A DNA stretch of 52,527 bases, counting the filler, from Sphacelaria rigidula (taxonomy: Eukaryota): the NCBI GenBank assembly GCA_964200075.2. It is 3 parts of 3 records of this genome, joined end to end, with 100 filler letters (N's around TTAATTAATTAA, not from the genome) between each part and the next. Parts side by side here need not be neighbours in the genome. Positions count along the whole stretch, not along the records: positions 17,547 to 34,987 come from CAXNAA020001082.1; 2 more parts are not named here. One strand, written 5' to 3'. The translations under genes were made by a program, and so were the position numbers. The notes below the pieces were generated by a model. It searched no databases and was not told where the DNA came from. It worked only from the letters and a program-made list of their open reading frames with translations. Shown here piece by piece: positions 17,447 through 46,506 of this stretch (positions are counted from its first letter, which is position 1; each line of letters begins with the position of its first letter).

Positions 17447-17546
17447 NNNNNNNNNNNNNNNNNNNNNNNNNNNNNNNNNNNNNNNNNNNNTTAATTAATT
17501 AANNNNNNNNNNNNNNNNNNNNNNNNNNNNNNNNNNNNNNNNNNNN
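17447..17546. other. Artificial contig linker N44-TTAATTAATTAA-N44
   Basis: Exactly 100 bp; six-frame-stop spacer; identical to 34988-35087. Confidence 0.97.
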
Positions 17547-17617
17547 GGGGGGGGGGGGAGTGTAGGGTGGGTGATTGACGAAAAGAAAAAAGAAAAAAAA
17601 AAAAAAAAGAAAGGGAC

Positions 17618-17678
<61 letters not shown>

Positions 17679-17804
17679 GTGTCCGAAACCTTCTCCGCGC
17701 AGACCCCTGGATACTCCTCCTGTCAAAATCTAACCACCACATGCACAAAGATCTATCGACCTTGGTGCTTACAGCGATATATCAACTCTTAGACTATTCG
17801 AGAA

Positions 17805-17952
17805 TGAAATGAGTGGGAGGCAATCAGACCAGTCCTTGCAGGAATCACGCCCCTGACCCTTATCCCAACACCAACCTTAACCTTGCCCCTAAAAATGGGG
17901 ATGTTACAGTACCGATGCAGTTTCGTAAACATGCGGCCTCCCACGCATTACA
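17805..17952. mobile_element. TG...CA MITE family with telomere-like core, diverged copy
   Basis: Homologous to 25219-25423, 28868-29053 and 32980-33161. Confidence 0.65.
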
Positions 17953-18151
17953 CACGAGTACGTCGCCATTCGGCGCGCGGGTTCGTGCCATTCAGGTGCT
18001 TGTATCGGGTGTCTCTCCATGTATTCTCTCACATTTTAAACGTTCCAGTCAACCACTTTCACAATAGCGGTTCGGCAGCATTGTAGCTTTGCCTTTTATC
18101 ACTACCTCCTTGCTCCCTACTAAAGGTGCCTCGGGCTGCATTTTATCTCAC

Positions 18152-18232
18152 CTCCATTTTCTTCTGCACTGTTGCTGACAAAAGTCGTACTACCATGAAT
18201 GGTGACGTCGCCGTCGAAGACATCGATAGCAC
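18152..18232 (-). CDS. 81-nt repeat exon 6: (G)AIDVFDGDVTIHGSTTFVSNSAEENG(G)
   Basis: Pyrimidine tract plus cag acceptor, G|gtgaga donor, phase 1-1, no stop; GGAI and FxxN motifs. Confidence 0.9.
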
Positions 18233-18322
18233 CTGCGGGGAGAGCAAGAAGGACGCACTGAGCCTTCAAAAGCGCGTGAGGGACGGGTTGTCACACCTGC
18301 ACTGATTTCGTCACGCAAACAC

Positions 18323-21300
18323 TTGGTGAAGGGTTGGCCGAAGCATCGTGTTCAAAACAATGCTCAAGGAAATGCGCGAGATTCATCAGGATCTCACGGC
18401 GGTAGCCACGGTGGACGGGGCTGTGCCAACGATGGACGCGGGCGCGGCGGCCGCTGTAGCAAGCAATCGGCGGCGAATAGTGGTTCCTCCGCTGCTGCCT
18501 CTTCCACTAAGTCATCAGGTGGTGACTCTGGATCTTCTGGTTCCTCCGTGTCGGGGCGGACAGTGTACGTAGGGAGTGCAAATGCTTCGGTGGGGAGTGC
18601 TGGAGCGAATAATTTGCTACCCCTCGGCCAGGCAGGACCCTTGTCTGGTGCATCTTCTACTGCTACGACGGCTATAACAGCGCCATCTGCATCTTCGGCG
18701 ACGTGGTCTGGGTGGATCGCCGATTCACAATTATCGATGCCGAGTACTGGAGCGCAGCCCTGGCGTCAGATGACAATCTTTACCGACCAGGGTTCATCGG
18801 CAGGTGTGGTGCCTTTCGATCGCAATGCAGAGGTTTCACGCGCAGATCTTGCCTTGCCTAGTTCCGTAGGTTCGTTCATGACCCGCGTTATTCTGGATGC
18901 TGGGTCTGCGCTCACGTCAATCGGTGTGGGGTTGCTGGAACAAATGTCGTCGCAGTTTGGCGGCGCTCAGCTGCAGATTCCCCTCGAAAATTGGCCACAA
19001 ACGGCAAAGAACGCCACGGGTTCTCCCGTGAAGGTGACACATGAAACGGTGCCGTTTGCTGTTAGCATGCGTACGCCTTAGGGGGCTGTGGAGTTGCAAC
19101 CCATTACTTGCGCTGTCATGCCCGGTAGGGACAGAGTCGTTTTATTTGGGATTGATTTGTGTCCGCTGGCATTGGATGAGTTACGCCCGCGTGCTACGCA
19201 TGTGCAAACCGGCGTGGAAACCCCAGCTATTTTGCTGCGAGGAGTGTGACCGTATCCATACGGTCGTTCCAGAGGGTCAACGAGGAGGAGGCTCATGCAG
19301 ATGAAGCGGTGGAGCGCCTGGTTGATCGGGGACCGGACATGTTTATGGACCCTGCGGAGGAGAGGAGGTGCACGAGAACGTGCGCTAGAGGACAGCATGC
19401 AGCTGGCCGAGCAGAAGGGTCTGAGCGCCGATGGCGCATATCGTCTGCGTTATATTTTGGCTCGTCGCGTGATGAAATTTCGGTGTGCGCTGCGTGGTGA
19501 TCTGCCAGCGCGCGTGGAGCCAATGAGGCTGCAGCTCAAGTCACAGGCGAAGACTGTGAAGGTCAAGCTTCGCCATTACCATCCGGTGAACACCGGGTGG
19601 TTTCCTTCATGCATCACAGCTTTGGTGGCGTCTGGTTCGTTGGTTAGGAACATTCAGGCTATGTCGGCGAGTCCGGCGATGCCGGTGCCGAGAAAGGACG
19701 CATTCCGTTTGGTCAGCGACTACCAGACGGTGAACGCGCAAGTGGAACGGTCTCCGGGGGTGATGAAAAGCCAAGAAGACATGCGGGAGTTGCTGGAAGC
19801 CCAATGCTTCGGCAAGTTTGACCTGCTACAGGGGTATTGGCGGATGCCCCTGGCGCCGGAGGCTTATGCGATCCTCGCGATTGTCACGCCTGGCGGTTTG
19901 TTACGCCTGCTCGTGTCCCACAGGGTGTGTTGAACGCCACAGCGTATTTCCAAGGTGTGCTGACTGACGTTTTGCGAGGTCTAGACTGCAAAGTGTGGGT
20001 GGATAACGTTTTATATTTTGCTGAAACCGAAGAAACAATGTTAGCTTTGCTTGACGAAATTCTTGGCCACTTGGAAAGTGTTGGTCTGTTCGTCGCTGCG
20101 CGTAAGTGTACTTTTTTCGCACGCGAAGTGGTTTGTCGTGGCAGGATTTACTCCAAGGGTACTGTTTCGCATGATCTCACCCGCATCCGAGATTTGAGCA
20201 ATATGCGACGTCCTCAAAACGCTAGTGAGTTGATGCAGTTTCTGCAGGCGGTGAATTGGTTGCGGACTTCGCTCCCGCGCATGGCGGAAGTAGTTGCTCC
20301 GCTTCGTGTGTTTTTGAAACAACTCATGGGTAGGACTTTGCGTCGGACCAAGCGGGTGGCGCGTAATCGTATCATCCCGGAGGGCGCTTGAACGGAGAAT
20401 CGTGTGCGGACATGGCGTGCTGCGCAAGATTTGGTGGCGCAAGCGGTGCCGCTGTATCATCCTCGCCCAGGGTGCGTTGTTCTGATATTTCCAGATGCTT
20501 CGGATTTTTACTGGGGTTGTTTTTTCAACGTAAGTGCCTTTCACACTTTATTCGTGACATTGCGCTCGAAAACATGTCACACGAACCGTTGGCGTTTCTG
20601 AGTGGTGACTTCAGGGGTTCACCGTTGCGGTGGACGACAGTGGATAGATAAGGTTTCGAGATAGTCAGTACATTTCGAAGGCTAGAGTACTTGCTTTGGG
20701 GTGGTGTTGGCATTTTCACCGATCATCAAAATCTGAAATACACTGTTAACCCCGACGAGTGTGTCATATCGGTGACGAAGGCCATGGCCCAACGGCTTGA
20801 AATTGGAAGTTGGAACGGAGTACTAGGCCAATACCGGTGTGCCATTAAACACATTCCTGGAGAGCACAATTCGTTGGGGAGATTTGTTCTCTCGTTGGAT
20901 GAAGGTTCCTACTGTGCCTGTTCGTTCTGTTGCCGTGTACAGCCTGTGTGATACCGATGATTCGCTGCTCCCGTTACATGTCATTCGTACCGCGCAGCGC
21001 AAAACAGTCGGCGACGGTGTTCGTTCTTGTCCTACGACGTTCGGTCAAGCGGCCTCGGCTGACGGTGGTTTGATTCGCGTGCGTGTTGGCAGTAGTGATG
21101 TTTTGTGGATCCCGTAGGATAATAAGGCTGTACAAACTCGCTTGATGGTGTACGGTTACATGCGGTCGGCTGATCACCGTGGTGTGGCGCCGACTCTGTT
21201 TCGGTCGAAAGAATACTGTGTGTGGCCTCACATGGATTCCCACGTTCGCGAGTTCGTTCGCCAGTGTTTGCATTGTGTAGACACTCGTGCTGGTGCCATT

Positions 21301-22153
21301 GTACCTCGTCCGTATGGCGATACTGTGCATGGTACTGCGCCAGGTGAAGTTGTTCACTTTGATTTTATGTACGTCGGAGATAGCGGAACTGAAGGTGCGA
21401 CGAATAATGGTCTGCCTGATTAGGATGGTTTTCGGTACGTTTTGGTCGTCATGGATGATTCGTCCAATTTCGTTTGGTTGGAGCCGACCGAGTCTTGCAC
21501 CGCCAAGGTTACAGCTGAGTACTTGATGCATTGGTGCAAGACTTTTGGGGTGCCGTGTATGTGGGTTAGTGATACCGCCACGCACAGGTTGTTTGTGCGC
21601 TACGGTCCATTTTGTCGGAACAAAGACGGCCGGTATCTGAATGGGTTACTGTTTTGCCAGCCGCTCAGTGGGCGTTGAATACGTTGGTTTGGTGCTGAAA
21701 AACGTACGTTGGAATCTCTTCGCAAGGTTCATTTGTATGCGCCTAAATTTGTTTCGAAGGAACTGCGTAAACTGCGGCTGACTCGGGCGCTGACCAGTAA
21801 ATTAGCGTCGGAGTGTGGTATTTCTTTGTGATCTGGCGCATGCGGTTTTGCCTTGGTTTCTGTAGTTTGTCAAACTCATTCGTTTGTCTTGAACCCACTT
21901 TGAGGGTGCTGCAGCCAAATGATACGAAGGCGTAGGTTTCGGTATAACCGCATGCATGATTGGAGCAGTGGCGGGGAACAGGGGATCCTGGATTGATGGT
22001 CCTATTCTGTGTGACCCCTTGTTGCCGAGCTCGTGACCTGTTGAGGATCACCCCGGGATAACAACAAGTTAGACTAAAGGACTTGTTGAGCACGAGGCCA
22101 GTGATACTGGAGGAGTCCCTCGTTAAAATTCCTCTTGTGCAGATCGTCTAGCA
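18323..22153 (+). mobile_element. Decayed, 5'-truncated Ty3/Gypsy LTR retrotransposon, antisense within an intron
   Basis: Order: protease (VILDAGS), RT (ASPAMPVP..FRLVSDY, FDLLQGYW, PQGVLNA, WVDN), RNase H (FPDASD, IFTDHQNL), integrase (H..H..CLHC, VHFDFMYVG, VSDTATH); frameshifts and stops; possible 3' LTR at ~21980-22153. Confidence 0.93.
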
Positions 22154-22170
22154 GAGGCTATTCATCTCAC

Positions 22171-22251
22171 CTCCAATTCCTTCTGCACTGTTGTTGACAA
22201 AAGTCGTAGTACCATGAGTGGTAACGTCGCCGTCGAAGACATCGATAGCAC
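22171..22251 (-). CDS. 81-nt repeat exon 5: (G)AIDVFDGDVTTHGTTTFVNNSAEGIG(G)
   Basis: cag acceptor, gtgaga donor, phase 1-1, open frame. Confidence 0.9.
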
Positions 22252-23795
22252 CTGCGGCGAAAGCAAGAAGGACGCACCGAGCCTTCAAATGTGCGTGAGG
22301 GACGGGTTGTCACGCACTGATTTCATCGCGCAAACCACTCGCAACATGTGTCACCTTGGGGGTTCCGTACGCTACGAAGACAATTCTTACCTTCCGATGC
22401 TCAATTCTGTACACCGGTGCTGTCTTGGAGAGAGACGGCAGCGGCACGTCTGCACCAAACAAATTCAGTTGGCAATGTTTCCGCACTGAATATAAGGTAG
22501 GATACTCGGAGCTTCGCATGAAGCAGAGGAATCTGAGTAATGAAGATTGAAGATATAAATTATGTTCAACCCAAATCGGTGCTCTCCCTGATCTCAAGTC
22601 ATGACAAATGACTTTGATATGGACGACTGTATCCCTCCCCGACCTCCCTCGAACAATATTCGGGAATTTTCCGTCTTCCGTTACGCCAAAGGGTACGTGC
22701 AAACGCACAATCTTCGGTCTATCAATCGTCCCTTTTTCCTTCCTCGATATCGAGGCAAACGTTTGCTTTCGCACACACACTTCGAGAGAATAGAAGGCTG
22801 GAACCTTCCAAGAAAACAGTTCGAGGTGGGTCTTGAGGTGAGGTCGTCCATATGAACATTATCTGTTATGCCGTAAGGTCCGAGAAAGCACTGGTTTTGC
22901 GTCAACGCTCATTTCCATGTTTGAACAATATTTCCAAGGGTCTTCTGTTCATAAACGTGCGGCGACACACATCACGGTGTTGTTTCCCCTCGCTCTGATA
23001 CCCCTCTGCCAAATATCATTTTCCTTGTCCGTTTGCCCGAAAATGATGACATCGGTCATGTTCAACATCACCATGGAGCTACATAGAGTGCTGACTGTTA
23101 CATGCAGTACGCAGGGCAAGCTTGTTCAAAAAGTGAGGCTCGTGGAGTGGATCGACCACTTCTGATCATGCAGGAGGGTGTGCGGCTGCGGTCGCCGATG
23201 AAGGGTGAGCTCGCAGTCGAACCCACACAGTGTTGGGTGTGCGCGTTAGCCTTTTTAGCCAACAGACCCAACGCGATAGGAACGTAAAACCGTCAAAACA
23301 TAGGACACACTACGTCACCACTCTGCAGTGCATTGTAGATCCCCGAATTGTGGTGGATCCTGGCAATTGCCCGGTTATCATTAATGGGGTTTACCAATGG
23401 AACCATGCATCACGAAGTTGCAGGCTGTCAGCACCAACCCCACCTCATACATCAGAGTCTACAGACGAGTGCTGGCTTACACGGCACAGTACCTCCTCCA
23501 AATGAGTAATGTCATCCACAGCTTGCAGGATACCGATACCAAACCGAGCGCACATGAACCAGATGTGGTCCGGAATCGACACAATCACGAAACCTCCTGC
23601 CAAAATCAAACCAACACGCACAAAGATTCATTGATCTAGGCGTTCACAGCCACGAAGCGACTTTGCGAGAAATCGACGGGGTGTTTTCAAGCGTGACTCA
23701 ATTTGGCGGTGCGACATCGAGTACGTTGCCATTCAGCGCATGGTGTCTTGCGGTGAGGGTGCTTCAATGAGGTGTTTCTCCATATCTTCTCACTA

Positions 23796-24392
23796 CTTCC
23801 TCTGTCCCATAAGTCTGGTTGGTTTTGTTTATACGAGCCCTTACCGTTGTCTGATCTGATTTTCGATGCTTTTATCGCTTTCTTCACCGTTTTTGAGGTA
23901 GAACAACATTTTTTGTTTTTGCAACATGCTGTTGAACCATGCGGCCGAACGGTCGCAAAAGAATCAGTCGGCCAAAAAATGGTCGCCAATCCCCTTTTTC
24001 CCGGGGGCAAAAAGTGTTGGAAAAAAAAAGCTTTTATTAACCGTCCTCGGCCTCAGCCAGGAAGTTCCAAGCCCTTTTTAAGGTATCCGCTTCGTATTTG
24101 ACCACCCTTTCTAACGTCCCCGCCCTCTGCCGTACCCTCACCCCGGTATGCTCCACACTAAAGTCGTTATCGCCCATCTTTCGGAGTGTTTGGTCAATAA
24201 GTGTTTCAAAAGTAGCCAAAATGGGGGATATCATGACCTAATTTTAGTATTGAAAACGAACGTTTTTCTTTTTTATCTGCCACGTCTGCGTTCTATCTTT
24301 CTATAGAACCCAACTATAAGAGTAATCGTCAACACCATCCCACCCAAACAAAAAAACGCCCATAACCGACCAGACTTGTGGGACAGAGGACC
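23796..24392. mobile_element. Stowaway-like (Tc1/mariner) non-autonomous element
   Basis: TIR core TCCTCTGTCCCA(T/C)AAGTCTGGT; flanking TA; interrupts the repeat unit; similar terminus at 52462. Confidence 0.75.
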
Positions 24393-24511
24393 TAAATATT
24401 TCACGATTTCCCGTGAACAACTTTCTCGATAACGGCTCGGCAGCACTGCCGCTCCGCCTTCCATCACCACCACATCTTTCCCTACTAGATGTGCTTAGGC
24501 CTGCGTCTCAC

Positions 24512-24592
24512 CTCCCAACTTCTCTGCACTGTTGCTGACGAACGTCGCACTGCCGTCAGAGACGACGTCGCCCCCGACGACATGGATAGCAC
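24512..24592 (-). CDS. 81-nt repeat exon 4: (G)AIHVVGGDVVSDGSATFVSNSAEKLG(G)
   Basis: cag acceptor, gtgaga donor, phase 1-1, open frame. Confidence 0.9.
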
Positions 24593-25218
24593 CTGCGGCG
24601 AGCGAAAAGGACGTGCCAAGCCTTCAAATGAGCGTGAGCGACGGGTTGTCACACGTACGCTGATTTTGTCGCGCAGAACACTTGAAATACGTGCCGCTTC
24701 GGAGGTTACGTACAAAACGAAGACAATCTTTGCCTTGCGATGCTCTGTTGTGTACACCGGTGCTGTCTTGGAGATAGACGGTAGCGCCACATCCATGTCA
24801 AATCATTTATGTTGCAAATGTTCCAGGAAAGCATACGACACAAAACACAAGCACGTGCAATATGCCATATATAGTCTGTAGTACAGTATCATAGCGCACA
24901 GCACAGCAGCACAGACAATATTAAATGACAACTGTAATTTCTCTGGTTGCTTTGTTCTTTCTGTCTACTTCAATATTTTTCCCAATTTCGACCCCCTCCG
25001 TGTTTTTGTTTTTGCACTTTGTTTCCTGGGTCAGACCCATCTTGCGACCTCGGCTGGATTCGAAGCGGATCGATTCATGCGAGACATCCAATTTAACGGT
25101 CATCAATCAATTACATGTTAATTTTCCGTTTTTCCTTGTCCTTCATTTGATTTCCATGACTTTTCACTTTGAGTGAGGTAACAAGATGCGTCTTCATCAG
25201 CTTCTGCATGATGCGTGC

Positions 25219-25423
25219 TGTAATGTGGGAGAGAAACGCGTGCTCCGGGGACCGCATCGGAGTTTAAACGCCCCTATGATTACGCTTAAGGTTGGTGTTG
25301 GGGTGAGGGTCAGGGGCGTGGTCCTTGCAGGGACTGGTCCGATTGGATTTAGGAAATATCGATCCTGACGTGTTTTGAACTCCAATGTGATCTCCTGAGC
25401 ACGCGGTCCTCTGACGCATTACG
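25219..25423. mobile_element. TG...CA MITE family with telomere-like core
   Basis: ~28-bp imperfect TIR; 5-bp TSD CGTGC/CGTAC. Confidence 0.75.
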
Positions 25424-25575
25424 CGTACAGCGTACACTCACTGTGCCAGATTGTGATGAAAACTGCAGTCAACAGTCTGCCTACCATATGTCTTGTCTAT
25501 ACTGTACGGCAAAAGGGAGGAGGCATATAGCTCAAGATGCAATACATCAACTACCCGATAATAAGCAACGATGCA

Positions 25576-25836
25576 GAGCAATGCTACGGTAGGGGTGCCA
25601 TTTTCATTTTCGCGGAGTTTTGTCTGGTTCAGCGGCTCCAAAAGATTCTAGACGCACAAGAATATGGGCCAGGGCATCCCCGTTTGCAGATTCATTCGGG
25701 ATATCCCCAGCATATTGGAATAGTAATCCCGGCGTACTCTCGCATATTTTCATAAGTCGTGTTTTGGATGAGATAAAGGGCTCCAAACAATTCCAACCTC
25801 GCAAAATATTTGTGTACTCCTACCGTAGCATCATTC
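25576..25836. mobile_element. Sola2-like MITE, copy 2 (opposite orientation)
   Basis: Homologous to 13979-14234; TSD TGCA. Confidence 0.85.
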
Positions 25837-27130
25837 TGCATCGTGTGTGACAACAGGAGAATGCGGCAATCAATCGTACGAATGCAGGTGGGTAGTCCAT
25901 CGTACGAAGTATATATATACATGGTATGTACTACATTCATACAGTGGTCGGTAGGTCCGCATCCGGTCGAAAATGCCATATTCGTTGAATACTACGAGCA
26001 TATTCGAAAATAACCCAGGTTGCGAGCAAAAATCGAAAAGGGGGGTCTTTCGATCGCGATGCCATGCGTTTCTCCTTCGTGAATGGCGCATTATGATGAG
26101 CATAACGGTTGTGACGGATGTCCCACTTTGCTTCGCTAGGGTGTATTGATTTCGAACCAGCTGTGATTATGGTGAAGGTGGCGGTGATTCTTCTTGTTCA
26201 GCCATGGACTTTGAAGAGGCACAACGATTTTGAGAGTGAAAAGGTGAAGACGAATTTCCGACTCTGAAATAATCGCTATAAAAAAAACTTCGGAGTGCAG
26301 CGTGCACCGTTACCGGCTACTTTCCCTTCTACCCGAACTTAACGATGAGAACATTCTCCGAAAGTCTCTAATAATGCCTGTACACCTCTTCTACTCATGC
26401 CCTCCATTGTCTGTTTATCCAAAATGAGGACATCAGCTATGTCCTACATAACCATGGAGCTACTACACGGAGCGCTGGCTATTACATACAGTGCACAGGG
26501 CAGGAGTGGACTGACCACTTTGGATAATAGAGGAGGGCTTGCGGCTACGATCGGCAAGGAAGGGTGAGCTCGCAGTCGAACACACACAGCATGGGGTGTG
26601 CACGTTCACCTTTGTCACCAACACGCCCAACATGGTAGGGACGTATAACCGTCAACACACAATATACACTACGCTACCACTCTCCAGTGCTTTGTACATC
26701 CCCGCGTTGTGGTGGATCCTCCTCTTTGCCCTGGTTACACGAATGAGGTTCAACAATTCAACCGAGCGGACATGAACCAGACATGATCCTGGATAGACAA
26801 AATCTAGAAACCTCCTGCCAAAATCAAAACAACACACAAATATCCATCGATCTAGGTGTTTACAGCCATGAAGCGACTTTTTAACTAGGCGACGACGTGT
26901 TTCCAAGCGTGATTCGATCTGGCGGTGCAACATCGAGTATGTTACCACTCAGCGTGTGGTGTGGTGCCATTCGGGTGCTTGGATGAGGTGTTTCTACATA
27001 TCTTTTCGCATATTTTACAAGTATCCGTCAACAACTTTCACGATAGTGGTTCGGCAGTACTGTCGCTTCGCCTTCCATGACCTCTACCTCGCTTCCTGCC
27101 GTATGTACTTGGGGCTGCATTGTGTCTCAC

Positions 27131-27211
27131 CTCCATTTTCTTCTGCACTGTTCCTGACAAAAGTCGTAGTACCATGTGTGGTAACGTCGCCCCCCAAGAC
27201 ATCGATAGCAC
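27131..27211 (-). CDS. 81-nt repeat exon 3: (G)AIDVLGGDVTTHGTTTFVRNSAEENG(G)
   Basis: cag acceptor, gtgaga donor, phase 1-1, open frame. Confidence 0.9.
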
Positions 27212-27617
27212 CTGCGGCGAGAGCAAGAAGGACGCACCGAGCCCTCAAATGCGCGTGAGGGACGGGTTGTCACACCCGTGCCGATTCTTTCACGCTAAAC
27301 ACTCGGAACACGTGCCGCTTTGGGGGTTACGTACACCATGAAGATAATGCTTCCCTCAATATCTATATGTTCTACTCTGTACATCGGTGGTGTCTTCAAG
27401 ATAGACGGCAGCGGCACATCCGTACCAAATAAATACGGTTGCAAATGTTTTCGCACTGGGTATATGGTGTGGTGATCGGAGCTTCGCATGAAGCAGAGGA
27501 TTCTGAGTAGTGGAGTTGAAGATGAAAATAAGGATCAACACCGAAACAGTGGACCATCCCCTCCGACCTCTTTTGAAATATTTCCGGGGGTTTTTCGTCT
27601 TCCGTTACCGCAAGGGG

Positions 27618-27699
27618 TTGTTCAGGAAGCGAACAGTTTACCCATTGAACCAGTGAGCGCTCACTGGTTCAATGGGTAAACTGTTCGCTTCCTGAACAA
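27618..27699. repeat. Perfect 82-bp palindrome
   Basis: 41-bp arms, no loop, centred on GAGC|GCTC. Confidence 0.95.
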
Positions 27700-27708
27700 A
27701 AGATATGC

Positions 27709-28039
27709 TGTGTGGTCCGTCTCGGCATGACGTTTCAGTGATCTCCGGGACCCCCTGCCCCTCGCAAGCATCACTGTTCACATTTCAAATTCCACCAATA
27801 ATCGATCGTCTGGAGTCTCGAATTCCCGACCTCTTGTTCCACAAGCCAACAGTTCACCCATCGAACCAATGAGCGCTCACTAGTTCAATGGTCAAATGTC
27901 CGCTTGTGGAGCAAGAGGTCGGGAGCTTGAGACTCTAGACGATCGATTGTTGGTGGAATTTGAGATGTGAACAGTGAGGCTTGCGAGGGGCAGGGAACCT
28001 CGGAGATCACTGAAATGTCATGCCGGGACGGGCCACACA
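27709..28039. repeat. 331-bp imperfect palindrome (foldback element or long hairpin)
   Basis: TGTGTGG...CCACACA; ~165-bp arms; its centre is homologous to the 82-bp palindrome. Confidence 0.93.
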
Positions 28040-28867
28040 AAATATATATTTTGTACAAGCACACATATGTACAGACACACGAATTTTTTGTCGATGAAGC
28101 GTCCCCTCTTCCTACGTCGAAATTGAGGCAAAAAATTGCTTTCGCACATGCTCTTTGGTGGGGTGAAAGGCTGGAGTCCCCCCAAGAACAGTTTCAGAGA
28201 GACCTGGGGGGGGGGGGGGGGTGAGGTCGTCCACACAAACATAATTTGTTAGGACGTAAGGTTCGGGAAAGCACTGTTTTCGAGTAAGAGCTCACTTTCA
28301 CTTTCCAACCGTATTTCTCAGGATCTTATGTTCGCACATGTGCATCCCCTCGCTCTGATGCCCCTCCCCTACACGCAGTGTTGATTTCTACATAAAGTAC
28401 ACAGGGTAGGCGTGTTTGATAAGTCAGGCACTTGGAGTGGATTTACCACTTTCGACCAGAATTGCGGCAACTGGCGTCGACGAAGGGTGGGTTCGCAGTC
28501 AAATACACAGAGTGTGGGGTGTGCACGTTCACGTTTGTCACCAACACGCCCAACATGGTAGGGATGCATCACCGTCAAAACACAACGAACACTACGCCCC
28601 CACAATGCAATGCGTTGTAGATCCCCGCATTATGGTGGATCTTTCTCGTTGCTCTATGTACACGAATGAGGTTCACCGATGCAACCATACATTTTAAGCT
28701 ACGTTTGTCAGCACCAACCATGCCTCAAACATAACGGACGAGTGCTGCCCAACGCGGCACGAAACCTCTTCCAAACGAATAATGTCATCCACAGTCTACA
28801 GGATACTGATACCCAACCGAGCAAACATGAAACAGATACAGTCCGCTACAGACACCGTCATGATACT

Positions 28868-29053
28868 TGTAATCCCTGAGGAAACCGCGTGCTTAGTCGT
28901 ATCGTAGTTCAAAACAGCTGAGGATCGACGTTTGTCAAAACTAATCGGGCCAGTCCCTGCAGGGATGCGCCCCTGACACTCACCCCAACACTAACCCTAC
29001 CCCTACCCCTTCTTATGCGGTCCCCTAAGCACGCAGTCCTCTCACGCCTTACA
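28868..29053. mobile_element. TG...CA MITE family with telomere-like core
   Basis: TGTAAT...TTACA; perfect 5-bp TSD ATACT; internal CTAACCCTACCCCTACCCC. Confidence 0.8.
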
Positions 29054-29379
29054 ATACTCCCGTCAAAATCAAATTATCACACAACAATTCATCAATATAC
29101 GTTTTTACAGCCATAAAGCGACTCTTCGACCAGTTGACGAGGTGACTTCAAGCGTGACTCAATCTGGCGGTGCGACGACGAGCACGTTGCCATTCAGCGT
29201 GTGGTGTCGTGCCGTTCGGATGCTTGAATGAGGTGTTTTTACATATCTTCTCGCATGAGTGTTTCGCAATTTCCCGTCAACAACTTTCTCGATAGTGGTA
29301 CGGCAGCACTGTCGCCCCGCCTTCCATGACCACCACTTCGCTCCCTACTAGAGGTGCCTAGGGCTGCATTGTATCTCAC

Positions 29380-29460
29380 CTCCCCACCCCCCTGCACTGT
29401 TGCTGACGAAAGTCGCACTGCCGTCAGTGATAACGTCGCCCCAGAAGACATCGATAGCAC
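29380..29460 (-). CDS. 81-nt repeat exon 2: (G)AIDVFWGDVITDGSATFVSNSAGGWG(G)
   Basis: tag acceptor, gtgaga donor, phase 1-1, open frame. Confidence 0.9.
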
Positions 29461-31309
29461 CTACGTCGACAGGAAGAAGGACGCATCGAGCGTTCAAATG
29501 CACGTGAGTGACGGGTTGCCACACGTGCGTCGATTGTTTCACGCAAGAAACTCGGAACACGTGCCGCCTCAGGGGTTACGTACGCCACGAAGACAGCGCT
29601 TGCCTCTCGATGCTCCATTCTGTACACGGGTGCTGTCTTGGAGATAGACGGCAGCGACACATTCGCACCGAAGTAACAACCTTGCAAATGTTTCCTCACT
29701 GGATATAAGAAAGGGTGATCGGCGCTTCCCATAAAGCAGAGGATGCTGAGTAATGGGGATACACATAAAAATAGGGTTTCACATCGAAACAGTGCTCTCC
29801 CTGATCTCAAGCCATAACAAATGACTATGAAATGGACGATCTCATCCCCCCCGACCTCCGTGAGACTATCTTGGGGGGATTCTCGTCTCCCATTACCGTA
29901 GAGGGTACGTGCAAACGCACGATTTTTGGTCTATGAAGCGTATACCTTCAGTCTCCTCGAAATCGAGGCAAACCTTTGTTTTCGCATATACCCTTCGGGG
30001 GAATAGAAGGCTGGAACTCTCCCCCCACCCCCCCCGCCGAAACAGTTCCTGGGAGGTGTGGGGGTGATGTCATCCATATGAAAATCATCTGTTATCCCTC
30101 AAGGTCCGGGAAAGCACTGCTGTGGAGTCAAACCTCATCTTCATTTATCAGGATCTTCTATTCGTAGATGAGGCGAGATATAACGGTGTTGCTTCCCTCG
30201 CCGACACCCCTCTTCTATTTATCCTCTTTATCTCCCGTTTGCACCAAAATGAGGGCATCAGCTATGTTTCACATGACCATGTAGATACACGGAGTGCTGA
30301 CTATTACGTACAGTACACAGGGTAGACTTGTTCGATAAGTGAGGCACTTAGAGTGGATTGAGCACTTCTGACTCTGAAAGAGGGCTTGCGGGTACGCTCA
30401 CCGAGGAACGGTGAACCCACAGCCGAACACACACAGCATGGGGTGTGCGCGTTCACGTTCGTCGCCAACATGCTCAACATGGCACGGTCGTATAACCGTC
30501 GAAACACAACGCACACTACAACACCACTCTGCAGTGCATTATACACCCCCGCATTGTGATAGATCCTACTCACTGGCCTGTTCACACGAATGAGGTTCAT
30601 CATGCATCAAGTCACAGGTTGTCAGCACAAACCGTACCTCATATATTACGAATGAGTGCTGCCTGTCACGGCACAAAGCCTCTTCCAAACGAGTATTCCA
30701 TCCAGAGCTTACGGGATACTGATACAACACCGAGCGAACATGAACCGGATATAGTCCGGTATCGATACTATCATGGTACTCCGGTCAAAATCTGAACACC
30801 ACACGAAGATCCATCGATATTTCGACCCTTCCTCTAGTCGACGAGATGTTTCCAAGCGAGTCTCGACTTTGCGGTGGAACAACGAGGGCATTGCCGTTCA
30901 GCGCGTGGTGTTGTGGCATTCGGGTGCATGAATGAGGTCTTTCTTCATATCATCTCGCATATGTAGTATCTGATTTTCATCGTTGGGGGCGTGAGAACGT
31001 GAGTAAATGAACTACTTGATATCCACCGTTGAAAGCGTGAGAGAGTGAGTAAACAGGGTGTGGACAGAGTTTGTTTGACGTTAGTTGACCCGGTGTGGGA
31101 CTGCTGACCCAATCCGTATGCAAGGTGTGTACCGGGGAGAAATGGGTTGATCCCTTGAGATCACGGACTCGCCCCGAGAAAGTGGAGGGCTTCGGAGTGC
31201 GACAAAAAAAGTAAAATACAAACAAAAAGCACGCGGTCTTCCCACCCATTAAACCATGACAACCACCTTGCTACCTACAAGATGTGCCTGGAGCGGCATT
31301 GTGTCTCAC

Positions 31310-31390
31310 CTCCCTTAAATTCTGCAGTGTTGCCGACGAAAGTGGTACTGCCGTTAATGATGACGTCGCCATCATGGACAGCGATAGCAC
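31310..31390 (-). CDS. 81-nt repeat exon 1: (G)AIAVHDGDVIINGSTTFVGNTAEFKG(G)
   Basis: cag acceptor, gtgaga donor, phase 1-1, open frame. Confidence 0.9.
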
Positions 31391-32979
31391 CTGCGGCGAG
31401 ATAAAAAGGACGCACCAAGCCTTCAAATGCGCACGGGTGACAATTTGCCATACCCGCACTAATTTCCTCATACAGAGCACTTGGAACGTGCCGCCTTGGG
31501 GCTTACGTACACCACGAAGACAGTGCTTGCCTCCCGATGCTCTATTCTGTACACCGGTGCTGCCTTTGATAGACGGCACGGGCATATCCGTACCAAACAA
31601 ATGCGGTTTCGAATGTTTCCGCACTGGAGATATGGTAGGCTGATCGGAGCTTGGCCAAGACGCGGCGGAACACAACAATCTTGCCTACCCTCTTTTGATA
31701 CCCCTCCGCTATTCATCCTCTCAATTTCTGTTCGCAGCAGAATGAGAAATCAACTACGTTTCCCCTAACTATGAAGCTACATGGAGTACTGACTACTACA
31801 TACAGCACAAAAGGCGGGCTTGGTAGATAAATGAGGCACCTCGAGTGGGTTCACCACTTTCGACCATATAGGAGGGTTTGCGGCTACGGTCGCAGAGAAA
31901 CAGTGAGCTCGCTGCCATGCGTGGGAGGATCCCGTGTTATTTGAATCGCATTGGGATTTGAACACCTCAGAACCCACGTGTCGGGAGGACCGCGCAGACG
32001 TCGTCTATGTATGAACGGCGCCCCGATCCAACCTCGACCGCGCATTTATCGAGCCAGGGGTAGCGAAGCCAGGCGAGGTGACTGGAGTGACACCACGACG
32101 GCGCAGTATGCCTGGACAGGGAGGAGATCAAGGATTTCAAGACTATCAAATGCAGGCACCCATAACTCGCGTGGGAGTTGCTCTCGCGTTCGAATTGTGG
32201 TGGGAAAGAGTTGGCAACGGTGAATTTCAGGGAGGAGTCGGCACCTACGACGCCGTCATGACCGCACCGACGACCTATGCTCGGTACTTGAGGGTATCAT
32301 AAGATGAGACGACCCATCTTCTCCGCACTCACAGGTACCAGATACCGAGGTTACCCATGTGCTCGGCACCTGCAGATACTGAAATTTGGTTTGCATGCGG
32401 TCCACTTCAAGGTCAACACACACATCAAGACCAAGGTACTGCAGTGTCCCCTCCGTATATTGAGAGGCGAAAATCAAGCTTCGTGGTCTGTAGTTGTATA
32501 ATGACGGTTCGACCGCCCGTCATCTTAGCCATGATTGTGTGCGCGGTATTATTGTATACAACCCCGCCCCATCCCCCATTCGCCTCCCCGTCTTTTCCTC
32601 AATTCCGGACCTACATGGTCAAAACTTGCTCTTTCCATCTCTTTTTGAAAACAAGAATGGATATAATGTACTCAAAATAGGTTGAGTACATGCCCACACG
32701 AATTTTGCTCCCCCAGCAATATAAAAAGGCTCCCAAGAGGAGAACCCCATATCGTGGCTCGCCCCGAAGCAGCCGCTGCTCATCGCGATGCAAGGCCGAG
32801 CGCTACGCCGCTGGAACCCCACGCCCGGAGCGGACGCGGTCGCCCCCGCCATCTTACTCCGAGGGAAGAACCAGAGATAGAAACCCATATCTATGCTGCG
32901 TTATAAATTCGTCATTGCGCTGGACCCGTCCGTACCGGGAGGGCTACGCAGAGCGTGTAGTATCTCCTGTCCGTCACGC

Positions 32980-33161
32980 TGTAATGCGTGAGCGAACCAA
33001 CTGCTTTTTGGACCACATAGGAGTTCAAACACCCGTATTGTTAGGGTTAGGGTTGGGGTTAGTTATGGCTCAGGGTCAGGGACGCGGTCCCTGGCGGTAC
33101 TGGCCCGAGCGGTCTTGGAAACATTCGGTCCAAAGAGGACGCGGTCCGCTCACGCATCACA
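32980..33161. mobile_element. TG...CA MITE family with telomere-like core
   Basis: TGTAATGCGTGAGCG / CGCTCACGCATCACA; internal TTAGGGTTAGGGTTGGGG. Confidence 0.75.
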
Positions 33162-33659
33162 ACACAAGTTCTGTCAGTGTCGAGAGGTGGTACCTATGTG
33201 GTCTGTCTGATTGATATCACAATTTGCTGACAATGTACCACGAATGACCGACACACCCAACTGGCACACATTGTATTCGCAAAGACACGGCAGGCTGCCG
33301 CATCAAAAAGTGTGCCATGACCGCATTTGTATCGGTGAGCACGTCAACCTCTACTGGGAACGTAACGTCTGTTATACCCATGGCAGAGAAAAGGACTCTC
33401 GATACTGAGATCGACTGACACCGGGCAGGCAGAGCCTCAAGGTTGTGATCTGTAAAGTTTGAATTCTTGTTCACCCGGGGTATTTTCCCTTGTATTACCC
33501 GTGCACGACAATTCTGTGACTTCTGTAAGACTTCATACTCTAGTAGCTCGCAGCTGAAACAGGAGAGACTTTCCGTTTTCGTAGTGTTTTTGGGTGCCAC
33601 AGCGCATCCAAGTGAATGTTTGGGGGTCGCGAGATACTACGCATTTGCTCCACACTCCA

Positions 33660-34215
33660 ATGCAAGAAACGTCCCTGCGCTCAATACTGAACGATTTACG
33701 GGCTGAGTTGACAGGGGGCGATATTGATCGTTTGTGGTCCAGATCACATTTCTTACCGGCTTCAGTGCATTACACGTGAAAATTTTAGGATGGGTTTTGA
33801 TTTTGTTTTCACGAGAGCGATTGGGTTTGGTTTGGCACCCCCCCTGTGCCAATCAGAGCTCGGTTGGGCAATTTTCCTAGCATAACATTGTTCCTCAGCA
33901 CTCAAAGACCGTAGCATCGATTAATGTTGGGAGAAGAAGCAGGTCGCGCCCAGGGAATAATCCACAGTTGGTGGTGTCGGGATAATACGAAGCAAGTACC
34001 TTGATTATCAGGGGATGTTGTCGAACGCCCCTGGACCAAAGATCACAGCTAGTCAGCTTTTGCGCAATATATAGTAGAAATTCAAAAAGCATCATCTCCA
34101 CCTGTTCATGAGAACGAATGGGAATACTTTAGTAGATCAAACCACTCAAGGTTCTGAACCTGGGAATGAGTAGTCGCAGGATTACCGAAAACCGGTCAGC
34201 CCGTAAGCCGTTGAA
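33660..34215 (+). repeat. Internal fragment of the element at 46881-47795
   Basis: Shares CGCTCAATACTGAACGA, CAGAGCTCGGTT and CGGTCAGCCCGTAAG blocks in the same order. Confidence 0.75.
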
Positions 34216-34987
34216 TGTTGAGTGCAGAATTATTTTGTTCGAACTTTTACTGGGATGAGCTGTGGAACGTGAAAACACAATCAAAACCGTTGACTATTTA
34301 ATGTTACAAAAATCATCAATTTTAGCTGCAAACTACCGAGTACTCGACAGTTCTGTAACTTCAGCGAGACGTCCATACCCCTACTCGATAGTCTGGAGAC
34401 TCCCGTTGGCCTCCCTACCGTTTAGTGAGTTGTGTAAGCTTTCCATACCGTAACCCGACAGGTTTTGTGATTTATGTGAGGTTTCTACACCGGCACCTGA
34501 CGATTTTGTAGGTTCTATAAGTCAGATCATACCCCACCGAAAATAGTCGCACCCTACAGCATACACCACTGGAAGTTTGCATCTGGGCTCTGTGACGGTG
34601 TGAGAGACAACCAACTAGACTACTAAAAAGAGAAGATACAACCTCTGTATAAAATTGGTCCCAAGGAGAGAAAAGCTCAGTAAAAATTGGCCGAACAAGA
34701 AAAAGGGTGGGGTATAGCCTGGTGGCTATGCTTGGAGTCGACTGCTAGGGACCCCAGTGCACACACTTTGGAAATGAGTGGGGGAGACGAGTAACGTTTG
34801 TGACGGTTTAGGAGACAACCAACTAGACCAGACACTTTCTACGATAGCCCCCCCCCAAAAAAACAGCTAAAAGTGTCACGAAAACAAATGGCCATACAGC
34901 GCATGATGTTCGGGTTCAGGCTGCATGAAGCGCCTCATATGGGCGACATTATCTAGAACGAACCCAAGCGTGGGAATTCCCAGCTTG

Positions 34988-35087
34988 NNNNNNNNNNNNN
35001 NNNNNNNNNNNNNNNNNNNNNNNNNNNNNNNTTAATTAATTAANNNNNNNNNNNNNNNNNNNNNNNNNNNNNNNNNNNNNNNNNNNN
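34988..35087. other. Artificial contig linker N44-TTAATTAATTAA-N44
   Basis: Same structure as 17447-17546. Confidence 0.97.
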
Positions 35088-39415: not shown

Positions 39416-40302
39416 TGACTACGGCATGCAAGATCATGTGTGCCTGCCCCCCCCCCCCCCTCCTCCGGTCAAGGGGGACAGGGGTAGTGTATGGAAACAA
39501 CGTGATGAGCACCGAAATGCTAGAGGTGTCTCTATTAAGAGTAGGAACGGTGCTCCGTCTCGAAATGGATGCATGTTCAATGGTCAAATGACCAAGGCAA
39601 GCAACAAATGAGTACACCCCCCTTCGGTTGATGATTTTTTTGGGACCTGAAACATTGTGGGTTCGACTTGATCATTGTTTACCTGGGCAGGGGGGGGTGC
39701 GTACTCATTTGTTGATTGCCTTAGTCGTTTGACCATTGACCACGCATCCCTTTCGAGATGGAGCACCGTTCCTACTCCTCATACAGACACCTCCAGCAGT
39801 CGGGCACTCATTACGTTGTTTCGTCCATACATTCCCCCATCTCACGGGGGGGGTGATGTATAACATACTCCGATACATACCAGTCACCGTGTACCGTATG
39901 CGTGCGGTAAATGGCACCCGGGGGGTCTTGAGTTTTCGGGTCTAAAATTTATCGCTCGGGGTATTATTTTTTCTTTAGGGGTGAGTGGGGGAGTGATCTA
40001 GAACATACCCCGGTACAGTACCGTACGTATCAGGCATAATTTATGGTAGGTTTACTGTATATACGGCCGCCCCCAAATGATGCCTTTTTGGAATCTGAAG
40101 AGTTGTTGCTCAGGCTTTTGGGGGGGAGGGAAGGAACTTTTACGTACCCCTGTACACTATTTCAGGTACCAGTCATTATGTACTCCAGGTAAACTGTATA
40201 TACCACCCCCCGGATGACAATATTCTGGGACCTGAAAAGTTATCGCTTTTTCTTGGGGAAGGGGGGAGGGGGGTGTACTCATGATCATGCATGCCGTAGT
40301 TA
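39416..40302. mobile_element. Non-autonomous TIR element (TGACTACGGCATG termini) with an internal inverted repeat
   Basis: ~35-bp imperfect TIR; flanks TCAGA/TGAGA; internal arms at ~39500-39620 and ~39695-39820. Confidence 0.7.
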
Positions 40303-46066: not shown

Positions 46067-46506
46067 GCGGTCGCAGCACGGCCTCCGATGACACAACCCT
46101 GCTAGAGAGAAACTCGCGAAATACCTCGATTAGAAATGGAATCAGAATGCTGCCTTTTATGCGTTAGCAATATTCTCGACTGCGCACAGCCGTTATATCC
46201 CAACCGACCGAGTCGTCGGCAAAATGCGGCGAAACCGGACCCACTGAATCTACTATGTCTGAGTGTGCGTCATGAACATGCGCCGTTGCTCAGACCCGCG
46301 GCCATTACCCGCGTTCATTGTAGATTCAGCGGGCCCGGTTTCGCCGCATTTTGCCGACGACTCGGTCGGTTGGGATGTAACGGCTGTGCGCGGTCGAGAA
46401 TATTGCCAACGCATAAAAGGCAGCATTTTGATTCCATTTTTAATCGAGGTATTTCGCGAGTTTCTCTCCAGGAGGGTTGTGTCATCGGAAACCGTGCAGC
46501 GACTGC
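46067..46506. repeat. Long inverted repeat (~190-bp arms, ~58-bp spacer), foldback or MULE-like
   Basis: Arms 46067-46257 and 46316-46506 are highly similar reverse complements. Confidence 0.9.

What the first reader, a model, noticed from the sequence alone, without database searches (positions are those of the whole stretch)
18152..31390. Hypervariable positions and mosaic exons within the array
Seen: the scaffold (G-A-I, V, G-D-V, G, T-F-V, N, A, G) is invariant. Positions after GAI (D/H/A; FD, FW, LG, VG, HD), before N (S/N/R/G) and the end loop (EEN, EGI, EKL, GGW, EFK) vary. Exons 22171 and 27131 differ at five non-synonymous codons and only one synonymous codon. Exon 29380 resembles 24512 (DGSAT) and 27131 resembles 22171 (TTHGTTT), suggesting a two-unit duplication. 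Exon 18152 looks like a mosaic: 5' part as in 22171, 3' EENG as in 27131. Inference: diversifying selection on exposed residues plus gene conversion or unequal crossover, as expected of a recognition protein.
Basis: partly seen in the sequence, partly recalled or inferred. Interest (0 to 1): 0.7.

Follow-up and report, generated by a model that had tools for sequence, protein, structure and literature searches.

The report
Hypervariable beta-helix exon array, brown alga
A brown seaweed builds what is probably a cell-surface protein from a row of near-identical small exons, one per turn of a rod-shaped fold, and five neighbouring positions in each turn are driven to diversify, as in immune or self-recognition receptors.

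Summary
The six exons are real: 81 nt, phase 1, minus strand. Each encodes one 27-residue Pmp-type (GGAI…FxxN) beta-helix turn. The genome holds at least 44 intact copies on 25 contigs.

Diversifying selection is confirmed, but only at five codons (4, 6, 7, 25, 26; omega about 5). The same five emerge in two disjoint subsets. The signal survives controls for recombination, site-specific synonymous rate and intron variability. Predicted folds put these sites on one strand and its two flanking loops. The position before Asn is not significant.

The 5:1 codon count is chance-level (p=1). Exon 18152 fits retained ancestral states as well as a crossover (p=0.14). Introns show no two-unit duplication. 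Exchange between units is supported (0 of 200 simulations), but at exon–intron boundaries, not detectably inside exons.

A paralogous contig and orthologues link such exons to a Cys-rich, TRP-like multi-pass membrane domain. The window's contig lacks both gene ends, and there is no RNA evidence.

It works like the brown algal LRR-ROCO and NB-ARC-TPR exon arrays, but on a different, probably extracellular scaffold. I found no paper analysing it.

The parts
31310..31390 (-). Repeat exon E1, 81 nt, phase 1; one Pmp-type beta-helix turn (first of the six in transcript order)
   Evidence: nearest exon copy is on another contig, C23807 (7 of 81 nt)
29380..29460 (-). Repeat exon E2, 81 nt, TAG acceptor
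   Evidence: closest to E4 (11 nt), similarity runs about 100 nt into the downstream intron
27131..27211 (-). Repeat exon E3, 81 nt
   Evidence: exon closest to E5/E6 (10%), downstream flank closest to a copy on C13018 (13-17%)
24512..24592 (-). Repeat exon E4, 81 nt
22171..22251 (-). Repeat exon E5, 81 nt; its downstream intron loses homology to the unit right after the donor
18152..18232 (-). Repeat exon E6, 81 nt; selected codons 4, 6, 7 at 18222-18224, 18216-18218, 18213-18215 and codons 25, 26 at 18159-18161, 18156-18158
22252..31309 (-). Four introns of 1.8-2.5 kb, homologous to each other over much of their length (19-24% diverged): the duplicated unit is exon plus intron
18327..22158 (+). 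High-copy decayed retroelement filling the E5-E6 intron (reverse transcriptase at 19822-20391, integrase zinc finger at 21118-21423; no LTR pair found); boundaries approximate
17547..34987 (.). The contig (G000:C1082) that holds the array; bounded by 100-base N/linker gaps; holds neither the 5' cap domain nor the 3' membrane domain of the gene

Best explanation
The six exons are the middle of a brown algal gene for a membrane protein with a rod-shaped ectodomain: N-terminal cap, a variable number of Pmp-type right-handed beta-helix turns, a few fixed terminal turns, a Cys-rich stalk and a 7-9-pass TRP-like membrane domain. In this subfamily each variable turn is one symmetric phase-1 exon. Turns can therefore be added, lost or swapped by tandem duplication and unequal exchange in the introns without breaking the frame. 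Selection keeps the inward scaffold (A2, V5, G14, F18, A23 significantly below omega 1) and drives change at five residues: 4 and 6 on the first strand, 7 in the following turn, 25-26 in the preceding loop. Stacked turn on turn, these would form one continuous variable stripe, the likely binding face. The protein most likely acts as a surface recognition receptor or adhesin in an arms race with microbes, viruses or non-self cells. Shown: exon anatomy, selection, secondary-structure position of the sites, tree conflict between exon and flanks. Inferred: that these six exons splice to a membrane domain, that 4 and 6 point outward (from alternation with conserved I3/V5), and the ligand.
For: Selection. 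M1a vs M2a LRT 114-128 for 44 copies, omega 4.6-5.1, posteriors 1.00 at sites 4, 6, 7, 25, 26. The same five sites emerge separately in 15 close copies (LRT 17-43) and in the other 29 (LRT 90). They persist with 81-nt exons only (LRT 105-138) and with the end loop removed (LRT 51). The window's six alone give p=0.004-0.023. With their own synonymous rate the five codons give omega 5.0, LRT 42; their synonymous rate (1.7) matches the other codons (2.0). Diversity at codon positions 1+2 is 0.61/0.70 against 0.42/0.56 for the top 5 of 26 intron pairs, 0 of 5000 draws. Codon 4 has an invariant third base in 15 copies while positions 1 and 2 need 5 steps each. Recombination-only null: 0 of 26 and 0 of 10 replicates reach the observed LRT. 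No stops in 44 exons, all with canonical splice sites. Architecture. Contig C16 carries six family exons co-oriented upstream of terminal turns, a Cys-rich part and the membrane exon; the latter is 100% identical to P0121. Orthologues P0122, P0123, P0125, P0128 and P0129 join such repeats to that domain in one protein. Pfam Chlam_PMP in P0121 and P0122. Models of a paralogue (pLDDT 76) and an orthologue (pLDDT 78) show three main strands per repeat, with sites 3-6 in strand 1. The top Foldseek rows for the paralogue are beta-helical lyases, adhesins and tailspikes. Exchange: tree conflict among upstream flank, exon and downstream flank, 35.0 vs null 10.6 +/- 4.5, 0 of 200.
Against: No RNA evidence that these exons are transcribed or how they splice. 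The window's contig lacks both gene ends, and the public model P0121 of the C16 gene starts after the variable exons, so the link is by synteny and orthology. In the 15 close copies the own-synonymous-rate test is only marginal (omega 2.3-2.4, p=0.04-0.06). A null with strong codon-to-codon rate variation reached the observed LRT in 9 of 30 replicates for that subset and 0 of 12 for all 44; flank rate variation is much milder (alpha 5.4-7.4). Foldseek matches are weak (best E 5.9e-4; none at E<=0.001). The folding tool returned no coordinates, so solvent exposure was not measured. Pairwise tree-conflict tests are weaker (2 of 71, 7 of 94, 1 of 100) and PHI was not significant. An intronless paralogue's 8 repeats give only LRT 5.2.
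Confidence: 0.7

Rival explanations
1. The exons are alternatively used cassettes (skipped or chosen per transcript, Dscam-like), so diversity is also made at the RNA level within one individual.
For: All 44 exons are phase 1-1 with lengths divisible by three, so any subset keeps the frame. Brown algal ROCO LRR exons are reported to be alternatively spliced (PMC11378527, passages).
Against: Orthologous gene models chain many such repeats in one protein, though these are automatic models. No transcript data here.
Confidence: 0.25
2. The fast sites reflect relaxed constraint plus local mutation or conversion hot spots, not positive selection.
For: Whole-exon omega is about 0.8-1.0 (M0). In the 15 close copies the five codons have a higher synonymous rate (3.5 vs 2.0) and only a marginal test. 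9 of 30 rate-heterogeneity simulations reach that subset's LRT.
Against: In all 44 copies and in the disjoint 29 the synonymous rate at these codons is not raised and omega is 5-8 (p 1e-10 to 3e-10). Adjacent intron base pairs never reach the observed diversity. No stop codons.
Confidence: 0.1
3. The protein is a cell-wall polysaccharide-binding or modifying protein (alginate, fucan), or a mechanical sensor linked to a TRP-like channel; the variable stripe tunes binding to the alga's own variable wall rather than to enemies.
For: Top fold matches include alginate lyases and mannuronan epimerases. The membrane part resembles fungal TRP-like PF06011 proteins (E 1.6e-4 in a paralogue, below the curated cut-off; Atlas rows).
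Against: No conserved polar outward residue that could be catalytic: the likely groove positions take 12-17 different residues. Strong diversifying selection is unusual for a self-substrate (general knowledge).
Confidence: 0.2
4. The array is an orphan or decaying piece no longer part of a working gene.
For: No gene ends on the contig; a retroelement fills one intron; no RNA holder listed.
Against: All six exons keep frame and splice sites while their introns have diverged about 22%. 16 of the 17 copies found by a DNA search are intact. Non-selected codons show omega 0.45-0.6.
Confidence: 0.07

Closest known systems
Brown algal LRR-ROCO and NB-ARC-TPR exon arrays (PMC3341825; PMC11378527)
   Same: One repeat per symmetric exon, tandem arrays, a few positively selected sites on one face (four on the concave LRR face in PMC11378527), occasional inactivated or inverted exon copies, same algal class.
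   Different: The repeat is a 27-residue Pmp beta-helix turn (81 nt), not a 72-nt LRR or a TPR. It is joined to a Cys-rich, multi-pass membrane domain instead of Roc-COR or NB-ARC, so it is probably extracellular. Dead copies seem rare here (2 of 46). Neither paper has the word 'polymorphic' in its main text.
Brown algal 'polymorphic outer membrane protein' / 'probable extracellular nuclease' family (database names, e.g. P0139, P0147, P0031)
   Same: Chlam_PMP repeats plus the same Cys-rich and membrane C-terminus; 1899 hits among 8000 scored candidates; 40 membrane-domain matches in this genome.
   Different: Other members here (contigs C1880, C5060, C83) carry their repeats in one long exon. 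This subfamily (six close membrane-domain loci, 78-100%) splits them one per exon. The names are automatic annotations with no tested function.
Chlamydial Pmp autotransporter adhesins (PF02415)
   Same: GGAI and FxxN motifs; beta-helix passenger. PMC2997323 (search listing and start of abstract only) reports adhesion via short repetitive motifs.
   Different: Eukaryotic, intron-rich, with an alpha-helical multi-pass anchor instead of an autotransporter barrel.
Fungal TRP-like / Flc proteins (PF06011) and protist Cys-rich multi-pass proteins
   Same: Weak profile match and predicted-structure likeness of the membrane part; Atlas neighbours carry Ephrin_rec_like, LRR, DUF7630 or TIR_2 domains.
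   Different: Score below Pfam's cut-off; no channel or signalling activity shown; no solved-structure match.

Membership tests
Chlam_PMP (PF02415) repeat proteins | GGAI ... FxxN motif pair | tested here: met
   All six exons read G|GAI...F-x-x-N across the splice junction
Chlam_PMP (PF02415) repeat proteins | Pfam match above cut-off | tested here: inconclusive
   Single 26-aa exons: 0 of 6 match. Whole relatives match: P0122 119 bits, P0121 25 bits, cut-off 20.6
Chlam_PMP (PF02415) repeat proteins | Right-handed parallel beta-helix | tested here: met
   On relatives, not on the window's own protein: three strands per repeat in two models; top Foldseek rows are beta-helical proteins, weak E-values
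Chlamydial Pmp autotransporters | C-terminal autotransporter beta-barrel | tested here: not met
   The C-terminus is helical and multi-pass in the orthologue model and by hydropathy
LRR-ROCO / NB-ARC-TPR | LRR or TPR repeat with Roc-COR or NB-ARC domain | tested here: not met
   Pfam on relatives shows only Chlam_PMP, LNR, DUF7630 and weak TRP/PTPLA hits
Exon-shuffled hypervariable repeat genes (works like ROCO/TPR) | One repeat per symmetric exon | tested here: met
   44 exons of 78-90 nt, all phase 1-1
Exon-shuffled hypervariable repeat genes (works like ROCO/TPR) | Positive selection at a few clustered sites | tested here: met
Exon-shuffled hypervariable repeat genes (works like ROCO/TPR) | Exchange or shuffling of exon units; inactivated or inverted copies | tested here: inconclusive
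   Three-way tree conflict 0 of 200; pairwise weaker and PHI negative; 2 dead copies of 46, one opposite in orientation to the other copy on its contig
Exon-shuffled hypervariable repeat genes (works like ROCO/TPR) | Alternative splicing or somatic rearrangement | not testable with these tools
   No RNA holder listed; only contigs could be laid
TRP-like PF06011 membrane proteins | Pfam match above cut-off; channel activity | tested here: inconclusive
   21.1 bits vs cut-off 28.5 in one paralogue, none in another; one Atlas structure row meets its naming bar; activity not testable

The most novel reading that the evidence does not exclude
This is a third, independent repeat-per-exon diversification system in brown algae and, unlike the two cytoplasmic ones described, a cell-surface one. 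A beta-helix 'variable receptor' has a binding stripe built combinatorially from exon cassettes, by germline exchange and possibly by alternative splicing or somatic rearrangement, and it signals through a TRP-like membrane domain in pathogen or non-self recognition.
Probability: 0.35. Interest if true: 0.85.

Novelty: new variant of a known kind. Interest (0 to 1): 0.62.

Why it matters
Brown algae evolved multicellularity independently, and how they recognise pathogens or non-self cells is open. The published candidates with exon-per-repeat hypervariability are, by their domains, cytoplasmic. This family supplies a concrete surface candidate with five named residues per turn that can be swapped and assayed. 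It also shows the same evolutionary design (symmetric cassette exons plus a selected stripe) on a third protein fold, a bacterial-adhesin-like beta-helix.

Tried and rejected
Pairwise pN/pS among the six exons: uninformative.

AU tests of partition trees rejected every alternative, but they are biased towards each partition's own ML tree. I replaced them by parametric simulation; an odd/even-column control gave 78 of 100, as expected.

PHI tests were not significant (p=0.90, 0.69, 0.98, 0.07). Triplet max-chi: 1 of 6 hand-picked triplets at p=0.005, not corrected for choice.

Synonymous distance of E2/E4 plus E3/E5 (3.5 of 36.8 sites) against the intron level 0.222: p=0.02-0.06, a weak hint of exon-centred homogenisation.

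Expression: no RNA holder listed. Contigs of two DNA-type and two possibly-RNA runs showed no splice joint between the exons among the 15 joints displayed (194 not shown). Equal depth in the bins holding E2 and E3 in both possible RNA runs (1.6/1.6 and 1.64/1.64) is at most a hint.

Search for the N-terminal cap and the membrane domain in the window: none. Neighbouring parts of the window were rejected as context: the three contigs are numbered by falling length (17446, 17441, 17440).

Foldseek of the full orthologue model: nothing at E<=0.001.

Literature: 9 searches found no paper analysing this family. The library lacks most subscription journals, and no supplements were read, so gene tables there may list it. 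Earlier scan notes: none.
Full report
Setting. The window is three contigs joined by 100-base N/linker gaps. The finding lies in the middle one, G000:C1082 (window 17547-34987). Contig lengths fall 17446, 17441, 17440, so the neighbours are unrelated pieces sorted by size and give no context. The genome is 244 Mb in 27214 contigs. A protein identical to a gene of this genome is labelled Sphacelaria rigidula, a brown alga, in the protein collection.

Anatomy. Six copies of a unit lie on the minus strand. Each holds one 81-nt exon with AG/GT ends, phase 1 on both sides, encoding 27 residues: G1 A2 I3 x4 V5 x6 x7 G8 D9 V10 ... G14 ... F18 V19 x20 N21 x22 A23 x24 x25 x26 G27. The introns are homologous over much of their 1.8-2.5 kb and 19-24% diverged, so the duplicated unit is exon plus intron. 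A decayed high-copy retroelement fills the E5-E6 intron.

Other copies. One DNA and three protein searches of the genome, followed by a nucleotide profile over the fetched loci, gave 46 distinct copies with homologous flanks. 44 are intact, on 25 contigs; one has lost its donor and one is frameshifted. Counts are lower bounds, and protein searches favour intact copies; the DNA search alone gave 16 intact of 17. For the codon alignment, six 78-nt exons got a gap at position 26, five longer exons lost their inserted loop codons, and one lost an extra first residue. The two dead copies were left out.

What gene this is. Neither the N-terminal cap nor the membrane domain is in the window. Contig C16 shows the plan: six family exons, then 87- and 84-nt terminal turns, further turns, a Cys-rich stretch and a long membrane exon, all on one strand. 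Six loci have a membrane exon 78-100% identical to it, and the next is at 53%, so about six genes share 44 or more variable exons. The public model of the C16 gene (P0121) starts after the variable exons. Orthologues from Ectocarpus, Scytosiphon and Pylaiella (66-77% in the membrane part) contain the same kind of repeats and the same C-terminus in one chain; three of the five examined begin with what looks by eye like a signal peptide. Two of those models read GGET at a repeat end, which is what read-through of the G|GTGAGAC donor gives. I infer that the one-turn-per-exon plan is shared across orders. Pfam calls the repeats Chlam_PMP. The membrane part has 7-9 hydrophobic segments and weak likeness to PF06011. 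Other family members in this genome have intronless repeat regions.

Selection. Site models (my own implementation, fixed trees; branch lengths re-optimised in two runs) are decisive. M2a beats M1a by 114-128 in 44 copies, with about 19% of sites at omega 4.6-5.1, always 4, 6, 7, 25, 26. Fifteen close copies and the other 29 give the same five sites independently. Results hold for exon, flank and combined trees, for three frequency models, for M8 vs M8a, for 81-nt exons only and without the end loop. The six window exons alone give p=0.004-0.023, with sites 6, 7, 25, 26.

Controls on selection. Simulated recombination without selection never reached the observed statistic (0 of 26, 0 of 10). 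With strong rate variation among codons it did in 9 of 30 for the close set and 0 of 12 for all. I therefore gave the five codons their own synonymous rate: omega 5.0, LRT 42 in all; 7-8 in the 29; only 2.3-2.4 (p 0.04-0.06) in the 15. Each of the five is individually significant in the full set (p 0.0004-0.013, uncorrected); position 20 is not. A tree-free comparison with intron columns, corrected for picking the top 5 of 26, gave 0 of 5000, and adjacent intron base pairs also fall short. The other 21 codons are under purifying selection (omega about 0.6).

Structure. I folded natural relatives. A paralogue (single sequence, pLDDT 76, pTM 0.80) and the Ectocarpus orthologue P0122 (35 sequences, pLDDT 78, mostly above 90 in the repeats) both show stacked three-strand turns. 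Positions 3-6 form strand 1, 7-8 a turn, 9-12 strand 2, 16-19 strand 3 and 24-2 a loop. The top Foldseek rows are beta-helical lyases, epimerases, adhesins and tailspikes, with weak scores. I3 and V5 stay mostly hydrophobic while 4 and 6 take 13 residues each, so 4 and 6 should face out. With 25, 26 just before and 7 just after, the five sites form one patch per turn. From general knowledge of parallel beta-helices, one sheet with its two flanking loops is the usual ligand groove. Exposure was inferred, not measured.

Exchange between units. Exon 18152 needs no crossover: the split is not significant (8 of 56), it is interleaved within codon 20, and it mostly reflects majority states. The two-unit duplication predicts one close intron pair; none exists. 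Yet nearest neighbours change between upstream flank, exon and downstream flank. In 14 close copies (E5 left out for lack of a homologous downstream flank; selected codons removed) the three partitions conflict more than in any of 200 single-tree simulations. Pairwise tests give 2 of 71, 7 of 94 and 1 of 100; exon halves give 31 of 100; PHI is negative. Best reading: moderate conversion or unequal exchange with breakpoints near exon edges, with point substitution as the main source of residue diversity.

Known systems and literature. [quoted passage not shown] This finding works like them but fails membership. The family carries automatic database names such as 'polymorphic Outer membrane protein G/I family'. 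The preprint 10.1101/2024.02.19.579948 has no 'polymorphic', 'Pmp', 'beta-helix', 'pectin lyase' or 'exon shuffling' in its main text (term search and passages; supplements not seen). 10.1101/2025.04.15.649019 (passages) has no bearing. Nine searches found no analysis of this family (listed under Tried and rejected); I saw those papers only as listings.

Verdict. This is a real, statistically robust hypervariable stripe on an exon-cassette beta-helix, probably of a surface receptor-like protein. It is a new variant of a known kind, interest 0.62.

Noticed in passing
window 17447-17546 and 34988-35087: Gaps are 44 N + a 12-base palindromic linker + 44 N; the flanking contigs are consecutive by length, so the window is a concatenation of unplaced contigs.
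   Followed up: yes
window 18327-22158 (+): Decayed high-copy retroelement (RVT_1, Integrase_H2C2) replaces almost the whole E5-E6 intron, leaving about 94 nt before the acceptor and a dozen after the donor; no LTR pair found.
   Followed up: partly
L020:6722-6808 (-) and L005:about 6170-6250 (-): Two dead family exons: one frameshifted and opposite in orientation to the intact copy on its contig, one with a lost donor.
   Followed up: partly
L026:4503-9812, L027:1078-6922, L022:3930-6293, L041, L042: Paralogues with intronless repeat regions of up to about 20 turns plus the same membrane domain; L027 has LNR (Notch) domains in front. In L026 the equivalents of sites 7 and 25 score highest but the test is not significant (LRT 5.2).
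   Followed up: partly
L037:4015-4095 and 4178-4258 (-): Two adjacent exons with identical translation only 163 nt apart in another subfamily gene (C494): a very recent exon duplication or an assembly artefact.
   Followed up: no
rows C24784, C4227, C16048, C4554, C11766, C15853: Six membrane-domain matches each report one in-frame TAG stop inside the match; could be short introns, pseudogenes or a shared feature.
   Followed up: no
P0121:310-700: The Cys-rich plus multi-pass module has predicted-structure neighbours fused to LRR (cnidarians), TIR_2 (haptophytes) and Ephrin_rec_like domains, suggesting a widespread receptor chassis.
   Followed up: no
window 46067-46506, 27698-28050, 39494-39822: Long inverted-repeat elements (arms 129-191 nt, 85-93% complementary), MITE-like; the one at 27698-28050 sits in the E2-E3 intron.
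   Followed up: no
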